Shown in pieces: positions 1 to 64,000 of a stretch of DNA of 64,000 nucleotides (the first letter of the stretch is position 1; each line of letters opens with the position of its first letter). This DNA comes from Amoebidium appalachense (lineage: Eukaryota; Protista; Ichthyosporea): contig CAVNZM010000007.1 of NCBI GenBank assembly GCA_963693365.1, positions 5,019,962 to 5,083,961 of the forward strand, read 5' to 3'. The translations under genes and the position numbers were made by a program. The notes below the pieces were generated by a model, which worked only from the letters and a program-made list of their open reading frames with translations, was not told the origin of the DNA and did no database searches.

Positions 1-3000
1 CATCAGTGCGGGGTCATAGTCATCCACGGCCTCGGCTGTGACGTTGCCCCTGATCAGGCCCCTCTGCAGGCCCTCACTGAACATCACCGTCACTAGCTGC
101 TGCTGGTCGTAGTCAGGCACGCTTTTGACCGGCACCCAGCACCCCACATATCTGTGTGTGTGTGTGTTGGGGGGGGGGGTGGGTGGGGGGAGGGGGTTTA
201 GAATGTGATACAGAGTGCAAAGTGCCCATTCATCACCGACAACACCATGTAGTTTTGTTTTTTGTTTTTGTTGGTTCATTTCTACAAAGAATACCCAGCA
301 ATCAATGCAGATGCATTTGTGTGTGTACTTGTGTATGTGCGCTCGTGTACGAGCATGTGCGTAGGTCCATAGGGGTTGCACGCCCTTCTGCAGGTGTGCC
401 CTTTTTTATTTTCATGCACATCCGACTCTCTCTCTGTGTGTGTGTGTGCGCACATGTGTGCGTGCACCCCCGTGTGTATGTGTGTGTCATTACGTGCAAT
501 GTGTACGGGCACCTTTTCATACCCACCTTGCCTCGAAGTCTGTCCACGCCTTATCGAATGCAATCACAGCCTCCACCGCCTACACAGTCAACACGTCAGG
601 GCTCTGCTATCCCTTCAAACCCCCCCCCCCCCCCCTTCCCCCCTCCCCCCCCCCCCCCCTCCCCCCTTCCCCCACCCCCGCACCCCCACATGGACAAAAA
701 GTAACGAACAACACACATTCAAACGGAAGCAAACACACGTCGCACCCCCCCCCCCCCCCCCCCCCCCCCCCCACACACACACACACACACCGGCCCTCTC
801 CCAACCACCAAATCACATCACACAATTCACCCCCCCCCCCCCCCCCCCCCCCCCCCCCCCACCACACACACATACCCATCCCATGCCCCTCCCCCCTATT
901 TACCCACCCACCCACCCATCCCCCTCCCCCCCCCCCCCCCCCACCCACCAACTCCCTCCCTCCCTTCCCCCCCCCCCCCCCCCCCCCCCCCCCCACACAC
1001 ACACCACCCACCCACACACACACTGCCCACCCTACCATTCCACCCACCCACCCCGTCAACCACCAACCCACCCATCCTCCCCCTTTCCCCGCCACCCACC
1101 CACGCCGTCACCCACCCATCCCCCCCCCCCCCCCCCACCCAACCCCACCCCATCCCCCCTCATCCACCCAACCTGTCACCCCCCCCCCCCCCCCCCCCCC
1201 CCCCCCCCCCCTCACCCATCCCACCCCATCCCCCCCCACGTCCCCTTCCCCCAACATCCGCCCACCCTCTCACCAAATCACCTACCCCCTCGTTCCCCTC
1301 CCCCTTCCCCCCTCCCCCAACCCCTCGTGGCCCCCCTTCAATACCCACCCATCCCCACCTCAGCATCCAGGCAGGGGTCCTCTGCCGTGGCCCTATCCCT
1401 TAGGGCCTGTCTCATCCTGTCGATGCGCTCACACAGGGTCGTGGCCAGCGGCCGCAGCATCTCACTCTCGGCCTCCTTGTCCGCTATCACTGACCCTGCG
1501 GCCAGGCACTGTGTGTGTGTGTGTGTGTGTGTGTGTGTGTGTGGGGGGGGGGGGGGGGGGGGAGGGGGGACAGAAATGTGATGAGAGGGAGAGAGGGAGA
1601 GAGGAGGAGGGGAGAGGGTGCGAGAGAGGAGGGGAGGGGAGTGGGAGAGAGAAAGAAGCAAGAGAGAGAGAGAGAGAGGGAGAGAGAGAGAGAGGGAGAG
1701 GGAGGGAGGGAGGGAGGGAGGGAGAGAGACAGGGAGAGGGAGAGGGAAAGGGTGAGAGATAGTGTATGTGTGTGTGGGTGGGTTGTGGGGGGGGGCCGGG
1801 GGGGGGGGGGGGGGGGGTAGAATGTGTTTCATATTTTTTCTTGAGGGGGGTTGCGGGGAGGGGGAGGGGAGGGGAGGGGAGAGGGGAGGGGAGAGGAGGA
1901 GGAGGCGGAGGAGGGGGGATGGGGGGAGGGGGAGAGGAGGGGATGGAATGTGTTACAGAGTGCGAAATATACATTCACGACGGAAAATGCAATGAATAAT
2001 ATGCATCAAAAGAGCACATCCAAAGAAGTACATATCAAAAGTGGAGCTTTATCGCGGGGGGGGGGGGGGGGGGGGGGGGGGGGGTTTGAGTGTAGTGAGG
2101 GGACCATACATGGGCCACACAGAAACAACTACACACTGGCATATGTGGGGTGGGCTGAGTACGTGGGTGTTTACAGAACAGGAACTATTTGCTTTGTAGG
2201 GGAGGTGTGTGTGTGTGTGTGTGTGTGTGTGTGTATGCGAAAGGTGGGCACAACCACCCACGAACCGTCAATCCATAACTTCCCCCTCCTACCCTTCTTA
2301 CAAGTTTACATCTCTCACCAATCAGTCCCCTCCCCCCCGGCCCCAGGGAAAAAAATAATCCATCCCATTCTCGGCCCCCCCCCCCCCCCCCCCCCCCCCC
2401 CCTCCCCCCCCCCCCCCCTCACACACACACACACCCTCCCTTCCCACACCCACCCCAAACGCCGCCACCCTCACTGCCACACACACAGACACAGACACAG
2501 ACACACACACACACACACACACACCCACCCACCCACATACACACGAGCACACACGTGTACACACACAAACACACATCCTCCGCCCCCCGCCCCCCCCCAC
2601 CCCCACATACCTCTGCACCAAACCACAGGGGCCCATAGTAACCCCCCAGCTCCTCCTGTACGTCCTCAGGAAATTTGCAGCGGTAGTCTCTGGGCACAAG
2701 CAGCGCTTTGACCCCTGGTGCCTCTGCAAAAAAAAGGTTCCATGGTAAAAAAAAAAAAAAAAAAAAAAAAAAACTTGCCGACGAAGAACACACAGATATA
2801 CATATACTCCCCCTCCACCTCCCCCTCCCCCCCCCCCCCCCCCCGCACCTCCCCCCTCTTCCCCCCCCCCCCCCACACACACACACATACACACACATAC
2901 GCACGCACACGCACGCATATGCAATGTATCACTTCCTTTCACTCGTGCAAACCTCTCATGTGCGCCAGACAAACACACATATCCACCCCCATCCCTGCGC

Positions 3001-63368: not shown

Positions 63369-64000
63369 GTGTGTGTGTGTGTGTGTGTGGTGGGGGGGAA
63401 GAGGGGATGGGCAGGGGGAGAGGGGAGGGAGGTGTGTGTGTGTGGTGTCTGTGGGTGGAGGGGGGAGGGGGGAGGGAGATGAGGTATGTGGGTGGGTGTG
63501 TGGGTGTGTGTGTGGTGTTGGGAGGACGGGGATTGGGGAGGAAATTGGCTGTGTGTGTGTGTATGTGGATGGGTGTGTGGGTGGATGGGTGGGTGTGTCT
63601 GTGTGTGTGTGCGGTGAGGGGGGGTGGAAGGGAATGGGCGAGAAAGAGATGTGTGTGCCGTGATGGGGAGGCTGGGGGATGGAGGGGAAAGCGGGGAGGG
63701 TGTGGGGGCAGTAGGGAGGGAAACGGTGCCTGGTGTTTATAGGGTGAGGAAGGTGGGTTGGAGCCGGCTAGGGCGCTATGGGAATTAGAGTTAGAGCGAG
63801 GAGCTGGGTGGTTAAGCAGTCACCAGGACAGGACAGTGGTTGAATAGGTTGGTGGGCATGCATTCCTGACCGTGGGCGTTCATTCGAGAAAGTGTTTGTG
63901 GGAAGGGTTTGGGGGTGGTCTGGCTTTCCTGGATTGGGTGTACGACTGTTGAGGGTGCTAAGGGTCAAATGGGCATGGGTACGGGTGAAAGCGGGCTGCA

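What the first reader, a model, noticed from the sequence alone, without database searches (positions are those of the whole stretch)
152..64000. Polarised, self-complementary intron architecture: G/(GT)n after donors, C/(CA)n before acceptors
Seen: read on the sense strand of each gene, many introns open with G-runs or (GT)n and close with C-runs or (CA)n. Examples are LST2 introns 1509-2610, 4030-5063 and 5166-6438; C2-gene introns 11750-14807 and 17109-17969; RPL13A intron 50352-51040; and EF-hand intron 54503-55586. The KARS intron opens with (GT)n. The polarity follows gene orientation on both strands. Poly-G/poly-C and (UG)n/(CA)n are complementary, so the intron ends could pair and bring the splice sites together. 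Established: teleost introns use complementary AC (5') / GT (3') repeats to bypass U2AF2. Inference: this looks like the opposite polarity, extended to homopolymers, and may be an undescribed structure-guided splicing system. Exceptions exist (580-1358 is G-rich throughout; 24988-25660 is C-rich throughout).
Basis: partly seen in the sequence, partly recalled or inferred. Interest (0 to 1): 0.8.

Follow-up and report, generated by a model that had tools for sequence, protein, structure and literature searches.

The report
Patchy G/C repeats at intron ends
In this single-celled relative of animals about a third of the introns open with G/GT repeats and close with complementary C/CA repeats and are predicted to fold into hairpins, but as many introns lack or reverse the pattern, so it is likely a by-product of separate biases at the two ends rather than a required splicing bridge.

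Summary
But I modelled all 28 complete introns of the window (14 backed by RNA contigs), and the pattern is a minority: 8 of 28 are G-rich at the donor and C-rich at the acceptor (6-11 by window size), 3 are reversed, 5 C-rich at both ends, 1 G-rich at both. The robust signal is C/CA before acceptors (23 of 28, p=0.0009). Donor ends are split: 7 strongly G, 7 strongly C. The two ends co-occur about as independence predicts (8 seen, 7.7 expected); folding tests lean slightly towards matched ends (p 0.045-0.27), with power of only about 25%. Half of the introns have almost no possible end pairing, including acceptors with (CA)n, no U-tract and no partner. G...C polarity is its own reverse complement, so 'follows gene orientation' is no evidence. 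G-5'/C-3' introns are already described in humans (Lin 2016). Best reading: long one-strand repeat patches, C/CA favoured near acceptors, G/GT tolerated after donors, hairpins incidental. A facultative structured-intron class in an ichthyosporean stays possible (about 25%).

The parts
4030..5063 (-). LST2-like intron 2, G-rich 5' / C-rich 3' (GC class); predicted end binding -199 kcal/mol
   Evidence: frame and homology
1509..2610 (-). LST2-like intron 4, GC class; (CA)17 runs into the acceptor, no U-tract
11750..14807 (+). intron 1 of the C2-like gene, GC class; (CA)n acceptor without U-tract
   Evidence: frame only
17109..17969 (+). intron 2 of the C2-like gene, GC class; G-runs predicted to pair with C-runs, the (CA)n tracts stay unpaired
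   Evidence: frame only
47977..48880 (+). RPL13A intron 2, diffuse GC class with ordinary branch motif and pyrimidine tract
   Evidence: RNA joint
49036..50165 (+). RPL13A intron 3, diffuse GC class with ordinary U-rich tract
   Evidence: RNA joint
50352..51040 (+). RPL13A intron 4, GC class; predicted single long hairpin leaving the last 12 nt free; best test case
   Evidence: RNA joint
54503..55586 (-). EF-hand-like gene intron 4, GC class; branch-like motif then (CA)14 at the acceptor
   Evidence: frame only
63369..64000 (+). KARS-like intron, G/GT-rich start, cut by the window end; not counted
2724..3962 (-). LST2-like intron 3, reversed polarity (C/CT-rich 5', G-rich 3')
40214..40960 (+). 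GC-AG intron of the novel gene E, reversed polarity
   Evidence: RNA loose end and contig pieces
43012..43955 (+). gene E intron 4, reversed polarity; (GT)29 near the 3' end
   Evidence: RNA joint
580..1358 (-). LST2-like intron 5, G-rich throughout; no end pairing, G-quadruplex predicted
152..526 (-). LST2-like intron 6, C-run and (CA)7 at the acceptor with no G/GT partner in the intron
5166..6438 (-). LST2-like intron 1, neutral 5', C/CA-rich 3'
23590..24626 (+). Agd3-like intron 1, C-rich at both ends
24988..25660 (+). Agd3-like intron 2, C-rich throughout
26029..26438 (+). Agd3-like intron 3, G/GT-rich 5', ordinary 3' end; pairs better with the upstream intron across the exon than with its own end
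32666..33438 (+). RBR ligase intron 1, C-rich throughout
33699..34803 (+). RBR ligase intron 2, C-rich throughout, spliced with no possible end pairing
   Evidence: RNA joint
35035..36615 (+). RBR ligase intron 3, C-rich 5', long (CA)n acceptor with no U-tract and no matching (GT)n
   Evidence: RNA contig pieces
39108..40117 (+). gene E intron 1, weak G patch 5', C-rich 3'
   Evidence: RNA contig pieces
41093..42976 (+). gene E intron 3, mostly C-type
   Evidence: RNA joint
44032..44858 (+). gene E intron 5, C-rich 5', G/GT-rich middle and 3' part
   Evidence: record lengths, frame
44943..45403 (+). gene E intron 6, C-rich 5', neutral 3'
   Evidence: RNA joint
47138..47837 (+). RPL13A intron 1, mildly G-rich, no tracts
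   Evidence: RNA joint
55637..57627 (-). EF-hand-like intron 3, C-rich 5', G patch late
57710..58791 (-). EF-hand-like intron 2, mostly G-type
   Evidence: RNA joint
58928..59838 (-). EF-hand-like intron 1, GC-AG intron, weak polarity
   Evidence: RNA joint

Best explanation
The introns here are built of long one-strand patches of G/(GT)n or C/(CA)n repeats, with C/CA before most acceptors and G/GT after about half of the donors, and the complementary G...C introns are likely the chance meeting of these two separate biases rather than a required bridge. Shown: neighbouring tracts are of the same type (149 of 158 pairs under 100 nt apart); C-type tracts dominate the sense strand also outside introns (20 clusters vs 4); C-type sequence is nearly free of AG (0.4 vs 3.8 per 50 nt). 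Inferred: repeat slippage spreads a patch; selection against stray AG and purines keeps G/GA patches away from the acceptor, where C/CA serves as an AG-free filler in place of a U-tract; G/GT patches are tolerated, perhaps mildly favoured as enhancers, in the 5' part. Where both happen in one intron a hairpin can form, and may help, but splicing does not depend on it.
For: Ends independent: GC class 8 seen vs 7.7 expected; Spearman -0.09 to -0.23, all p>0.2; mirrored Lin criteria show no co-enrichment (Fisher p 0.18-0.65). 14 of 28 introns have end binding weaker than -15 kcal/mol, seven of them RNA-backed. Donor ends 7 strongly G, 7 strongly C. Six acceptors lack any T in the 20 nt before the last three bases, and three of them have no matching (GT)n at the 5' end (152-526, 17109-17969, 35035-36615). 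Cross-exon pairing is of the same order as cross-intron pairing (-33.9 vs -40.8 kcal/mol) and beats it at two exons. Tract autocorrelation, sense-strand C default, AG counts and median AG-free zone of 100 nt. C-rich intron 3' ends are reported in Chlamydomonas (PMC2830987, passage); in human LCAT intron 4 the G/C stem was tested and found not to contribute (PMC2481429, Discussion).
Against: Every folding test leans towards matched ends: native introns bridge their first and last 100 nt more than chimeric introns (14 of 24 with 20 or more pairs vs 6-8 of 24 in five rounds, p=0.045) and than circular permutations (2-6 of 24, p=0.008; this second result is expected from the marginal biases alone); end cofolding p=0.064-0.13, duplex p=0.12-0.27; at a 100-nt window GC is 11 vs 8.6 expected (p=0.05, uncorrected). 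All four RPL13A introns show 32-68 end pairs. Power is low. G-type clusters are enriched in 5' thirds over intergenic DNA (11:11 vs 4:20, p=0.027), so the 5' G patches are not fully neutral.
Confidence: 0.55

Rival explanations
1. A facultative class of structured introns: in a quarter to a third of introns the G/GT arm pairs with the C/CA arm, brings the splice sites together and makes up for the missing U-tract, as AC/GT pairs do in fish but with the opposite dinucleotide polarity.
For: GC class above random placement (8 vs 2.2, p=0.001); strong predicted end binding in 7 introns, 5 of them GC class; chimera test p=0.045; RPL13A intron 4 folds as one rod with the acceptor left free; 4 of the 6 acceptors without T are in GC-class introns; tract order GT-then-G and C-then-CA nests correctly.
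Against: No significant co-occurrence in 7 window sizes or 8 motif tests; reversed introns bridge as well (2724-3962, 43012-43955); (CA)n stay unpaired in 17109-17969; allowing G-quadruplexes lowers end pairing in 3 of the 4 GC-class introns with long G-runs that were folded this way; the nested order follows from a directional property of the tracts that also holds in intergenic DNA.
Confidence: 0.25
2. Both ends are single-stranded protein-binding enhancers under selection: G-runs and GU repeats after the donor (hnRNP F/H, CELF type), C-runs and CA repeats before the acceptor (PCBP/hnRNP K, hnRNP L type) that stand in for a U2AF2 tract.
For: Independence of the ends fits; 10 of 28 acceptors have 2 or fewer T in the tract region; G-rich and C-rich enhancers of weak-tract introns are shown in human (PMC2481429), CA repeats act through hnRNP L (PMC5622345, passage); RPL13A shows the gradient without long tracts.
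Against: C-type patches are as common as G-type after donors and dominate intergenic DNA as well; no genome was held to look for the factors.
Confidence: 0.15
3. Chance or assembly artefact: regional strand skew and a few striking introns in a small sample.
For: Polarity not seen in the RNA-backed 14 or the unnamed 19, gene bootstrap includes zero; C10 runs 101 vs G10 runs 56 on the + strand; frame breaks at homopolymers in exon 14808-17108 suggest indel errors.
Against: The 3' C bias holds for genes on both strands and in the gene bootstrap (-0.58 to -0.18); patches are hundreds of bases of mixed repeats, not single runs; C- and G-runs also appear in independent contigs.
Confidence: 0.05

Closest known systems
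Teleost and lamprey (AC)m-(GT)n structured introns (Lin et al. 2016, PMC4691745; abstract, results, discussion and most methods read)
   Same: Complementary simple repeats near the two intron ends; predicted bridging hairpin; acceptors without a pyrimidine tract.
   Different: Opposite dinucleotide polarity, homopolymer runs, patches of hundreds of bases in introns of about 1 kb; co-enrichment across the intron, the defining test there, is not shown here; no experiment.
[quoted passage not shown] 7 legend)
   Same: Same polarity: G at the 5' end, C at the 3' end, proposed to bridge splice sites.
   Different: There four times above chance genome-wide, with triplets within 40 nt; here 1 of 28 meets that rule (0.6 expected) and 7 of 28 at 100 nt (5.4 expected), with much longer runs.
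G-rich and C-rich intronic enhancers of weak-tract introns (Murray et al. 2008, PMC2481429; outline and first part of Discussion read)
   Same: G- and C-rich motifs in introns with a poor U2AF2 tract.
   Different: Short motifs in short human introns; pairing was tested in LCAT intron 4 and not needed; nothing tested here.
Chlamydomonas introns with C-rich 3' ends and di-/trinucleotide repeat motifs (PMC2830987; two passages read)
   Same: C enrichment in place of a pyrimidine tract; simple repeats in constitutive introns.
   Different: Green alga, short introns; no end pairing claimed in the passages read.
Diplonemid and euglenid non-canonical introns with paired G- and C-rich ends (PMC12621601; passages read)
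   Same: Inverted G- and C-rich intron ends predicted to pair; CA-rich intron motifs.
   Different: Those lack GT-AG and pair in the terminal bases; here 26 of 28 are GT-AG and 2 GC-AG, with ordinary donors.

Membership tests
Repeat-bridged structured introns (Lin 2016) | Complementary simple repeats near the 5' and 3' ends of the same intron | tested here: met
   8 of 28 at 150 nt, 6-11 by window
Repeat-bridged structured introns (Lin 2016) | AC at the 5' end and GT at the 3' end (fish polarity) | tested here: not met
   0 of 28 at 50 nt, 2 of 28 at 200 nt (1.7 expected)
Repeat-bridged structured introns (Lin 2016) | The two repeat types co-occur across introns above independence | tested here: inconclusive
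   8 vs 7.7 expected, p 0.05-0.79; motif tests p 0.18-0.65 for this polarity; chimera folding p=0.045; power about 25%
Repeat-bridged structured introns (Lin 2016) | [quoted passage not shown] | tested here: inconclusive
   7 of 21 internal exons have C upstream and G downstream; mean binding -33.9 across exons vs -40.8 across introns
Repeat-bridged structured introns (Lin 2016) | Folding more stable than dinucleotide shuffles | tested here: met
   2 of 2 GC-class introns tested, z -2.5 and -8.0 with 20 shuffles each; expected of any G-then-C sequence
Repeat-bridged structured introns (Lin 2016) | Structure forms and is needed for accurate splicing; U2AF2 dispensable | not testable with these tools
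   needs probing, minigenes and knock-down; no genome held to inspect U2AF2
[quoted passage not shown] | At least three GGG in the first 40 nt and three CCC in the last 40 nt, above chance | tested here: inconclusive
   1 of 28 vs 0.6 expected
Non-canonical paired-end introns of euglenozoans | No GT-AG borders | tested here: not met
   26 GT-AG and 2 GC-AG of 28

The most novel reading that the evidence does not exclude
An ichthyosporean has evolved, independently of fish and with the opposite polarity, a class of about one intron in three in which kilobase-scale G/(GU)n and C/(CA)n arms zip the intron into a rod and let acceptors work with no U-tract, so repeat-bridged splicing would be a recurrent solution that reaches back to unicellular relatives of animals and is fed by a directional repeat-mutation process that builds nested arms by itself.
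Probability: 0.22. Interest if true: 0.62.

Novelty: new member of a known kind. Interest (0 to 1): 0.32.

Why it matters
If the ends are independent, this is a repeat-rich protist genome with C/CA-filled acceptors: a curiosity of gene architecture that matters for annotation and for how U2AF copes with U-free tracts. If the pairing proved real, it would extend repeat-bridged splicing from vertebrates to a unicellular holozoan, show convergence with reversed polarity, and offer a test system for whether microsatellite slippage can create splice-site pairing signals. One genome-wide count on an annotated assembly decides between the two.

Tried and rejected
No whole genome is held, so every count rests on 28 introns in 7 genes of one window. 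No listed holder is on record as RNA; the three runs found are contigs guessed to be RNA, of one sample; their GT..AG joints at the predicted places show spliced molecules. The metagenome scan with an RPL13A exon gave 21 loci, 57-71% identical, none a close relative; the 5 loci over 2.5 kb have almost no such tracts. Earlier findings of the scan: nothing for this genome or look-alikes, nothing relevant by words. The RPL13A tree does not place the window. Paper searches for such a pattern in ichthyosporeans, choanoflagellates or protists and for directional compound repeats showed no such report in their listings; most subscription papers are not searched, and two follow-up papers of the Lin group are not held. 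The supplementary tables of PMC4691745, which list further repeat pairs, were not read. Rejected: 'polarity follows gene orientation' as evidence (the pattern is strand-symmetric); circular-permutation folding as evidence of matched ends (it follows from the marginal biases); nested tract order as evidence of selection for pairing (it also holds outside introns). A candidate KARS 5'-UTR intron (about 62403-63117, G-rich start, C/T-rich end) was left out because it is unverified; adding it and the cut KARS intron would raise the G-rich donors by two.
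Full report
Setting. No whole genome is held for the window. The window carries eight intron-rich genes. The best hits of the long Agd3-like exon (Pfam Agd3_CE) are, among the named ones, proteins of Sphaeroforma arctica and of sets labelled CFRG, Awhi and Pgem at 33-41% identity; I read these labels from recall as Creolimax, Abeoforma and Pirum. 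RPL13A is 67% identical to the protein labelled Nk52 and is not placed by the tree. The organism is therefore likely an ichthyosporean, a unicellular relative of animals; the species was not determined.

Intron set. I built gene models by frame continuity and by RNA contigs laid on 44001-64000 and 33400-44300. This gave 28 complete introns in 7 genes (375-3058 nt; 26 GT-AG, 2 GC-AG) plus the cut KARS intron. Fourteen are RNA-backed: ten by listed joints (two of them by one joint with the small exon's letters between) and four by contig pieces, a loose end or record lengths. The six introns of the first gene are backed by homology (230 aa, 52% identity, colinear with P0136).

What the sequence shows. 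Introns are made of long patches of one type: G-runs with (GT)n and GA repeats, or C-runs with (CA)n and CT repeats (skew map). Neighbouring tracts under 100 nt apart are of the same type in 149 of 158 cases. With 150 nt at each end, classes are GC 8, CG 3, CC 5, GG 1, neutral-C 5, G-neutral 3, C-neutral 3. The 3' end is C-rich in 23 of 28 at 50 nt (sign test p=0.0009), on both strands, and the gene bootstrap keeps this (-0.58 to -0.18). The 5' end has mean skew near zero and is bimodal: 7 above 0.7, 7 below -0.7. Both subsets are biased: the first against long repeats, the second against the effect. Dropping gene E alone makes it strong (p=0.003), dropping any of five other genes weakens it to p 0.08-0.14. 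A G...C intron reads G...C on the other strand too, so orientation cannot be read from it. The strand-sensitive evidence is different: in DNA between genes, tract clusters oriented to the nearest gene are C-type 20 to 4, in tandem, convergent and divergent gaps; in intron 5' thirds they are 11 to 11 (p=0.027 against intergenic) and in 3' thirds 16 to 6 (unannotated UTR introns could blur this). So C/CA is the sense-strand default, and G/GT is relatively enriched after donors.

Do the ends match? Pairing as a system predicts co-occurrence. GC-class introns number 6, 9, 10, 11, 8, 7, 6 at windows of 30-300 nt against 6.1, 8.2, 8.2, 8.6, 7.7, 7.5, 5.0 expected from independence (p 0.05-0.79). The criteria of Lin et al., mirrored, give GT/AC hexamers at both ends in 1 of 28 (0.9 expected) at 50 nt and 4 (3.2) at 200 nt; G and C triplets in 1 (0.6) at 40 nt and 7 (5.4) at 100 nt. 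Duplex energies of own versus swapped ends give p 0.27, 0.12, 0.12; cofolding gives p 0.099 and 0.064, and 0.13 and 0.12 within genes. Whole-intron folds of the 24 introns up to 1300 nt pair the first and last 100 nt by 20 or more bases in 14; chimeras do so in 6-8 (five rounds, p=0.045) and circular permutations in 2-6 (four rounds, p=0.008). The question is open, not settled.

Is pairing needed? Not in general. Fourteen of 28 introns have end binding weaker than -15 kcal/mol, among them RNA-backed 33699-34803 and 35035-36615. Six acceptors have no T in the 20 nt before the last three bases. Four of these lie in GC-class introns, which favours the pairing idea; but 152-526 has no G-run over 5 and no (GT)n over 2 units in the intron, 35035-36615 ends in a long (CA)n with at most (GT)5 upstream, and in 17109-17969 the (CA)n tracts stay unpaired in the predicted fold. 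Reversed introns bridge too (2724-3962 at -102, 43012-43955 at -60 kcal/mol). At two exons the C-rich end of the upstream intron binds the G-rich start of the next intron better than either intron's own ends, the arrangement that fish avoid (PMC4691745). Allowing G-quadruplexes reduces end pairing in 17109-17969, 4030-5063 and 54503-55586 but not in 1509-2610. The best single case for structure is RPL13A intron 50352-51040: RNA-backed, predicted as one rod from base 3 to 12 nt before its end (z -2.5).

Likely mechanism. Shown: patches, C default, and that C-type 50-nt bins hold 0.4 AG against 3.8 in G-type bins, with a median AG-free zone of 100 nt before acceptors. Inferred: slippage spreads one repeat type along a strand; selection against cryptic AG and purines near the acceptor keeps G/GA patches away, and C/CA fills the place of the U-tract; G/GT patches are tolerated or mildly favoured after donors. 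Complementary introns then arise at about the product of the two frequencies, which is what is seen. A further property makes their arms nest: a C-run is followed by (AC)n 13 times and preceded by (CA)n never; followed by an A-run 13 times and preceded by one never; 5 of these 26 lie between genes. A possible cause, from recall and untested, is preferential oxidation and G-to-T change at the 5' base of G-runs; a base-calling artefact is not excluded.

Comparison with what is known. Lin et al. 2016 (PMC4691745; parts 1-5 of 7 read) define AC-5'/GT-3' introns in fish by co-enrichment across introns, structure probing, compensatory rescue and U2AF2 independence, and already report G-triplet-5'/C-triplet-3' introns in human, the polarity seen here. 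Murray et al. 2008 (PMC2481429; outline and first part of Discussion) show G- and C-rich enhancers in weak-tract introns and found the G/C stem not to matter in LCAT intron 4. Chlamydomonas has C-rich 3' ends (PMC2830987, two passages). Diplonemid non-canonical introns have paired G- and C-rich ends (PMC12621601, passages). Passages of PMC5622345, PMC7404189, PMC5560861, PMC4739763 and PMC11244446 and a term search of PMC4378016 (no hits) showed no report of this pattern in ichthyosporeans; nor did the listings of the searches named under Tried and rejected. Supplementary tables of Lin et al. were not read and two follow-up papers are not held.

Verdict. Observation partly confirmed; interpretation possible but unproven and not new in kind. 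Independent end biases 0.55, facultative structured introns 0.25, protein-bound enhancers at both ends 0.15, chance or artefact 0.05. Interest 0.32; a genome-wide count would settle it cheaply.

Noticed in passing
window-wide, e.g. 745-790, 24996-25050, 30476-30547, 41620-41670: Compound tracts are strictly directional: C-run then (AC)n 13 times vs 0 for the reverse order; C-run then A-run 13 vs 0 (both strands pooled; also between genes). Suggests a polar mutation process at G/C runs, or a base-calling artefact.
   Followed up: partly
intergenic gaps 6641-11669, 18641-23099, 28053-31970, 37173-38680, 45912-47099, 51225-54387: Repeat clusters are C-type on the sense strand of the nearest gene (20 vs 4), flipping in the convergent gap between RPL13A and the EF-hand-like gene.
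   Followed up: partly
35641-36026 and 56393-56777 (inverted), piece at 55646-55791: A 386-bp dispersed repeat, 97% identical, sits in two introns and draws very deep contig cover in the RNA-type runs: likely a high-copy short mobile element.
   Followed up: partly
   Followed up: partly
58928-59838 (-): Second GC-AG intron; 2 of 28 introns are GC-AG, high for such a small set.
   Followed up: yes
14808-17108 (+): The long exon of the C2-like gene changes frame at least twice near homopolymer runs, likely assembly indels; the signal-peptide region near 23160 looks similar.
   Followed up: partly
23137-28052 (+): Agd3-type polysaccharide deacetylase with a signal-peptide-like start and a C-terminal hydrophobic segment; nearest named relatives are ichthyosporean.
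   Followed up: partly
7170-7650 and 7630-8370: Degenerate repeats of about 28-32 bp, A-rich then T-rich, facing each other upstream of the LST2-like gene; may be an old inverted-repeat element.
   Followed up: no
about 62403-63117 (+): Candidate 5'-UTR intron of the KARS-like gene with G-rich start and pyrimidine-rich end; one contig runs through it unspliced, so unverified.
   Followed up: partly
33147-33382 (+): Long (TCAC)n array inside RBR ligase intron 1, made of branch-point-like CTCAC words.
   Followed up: no
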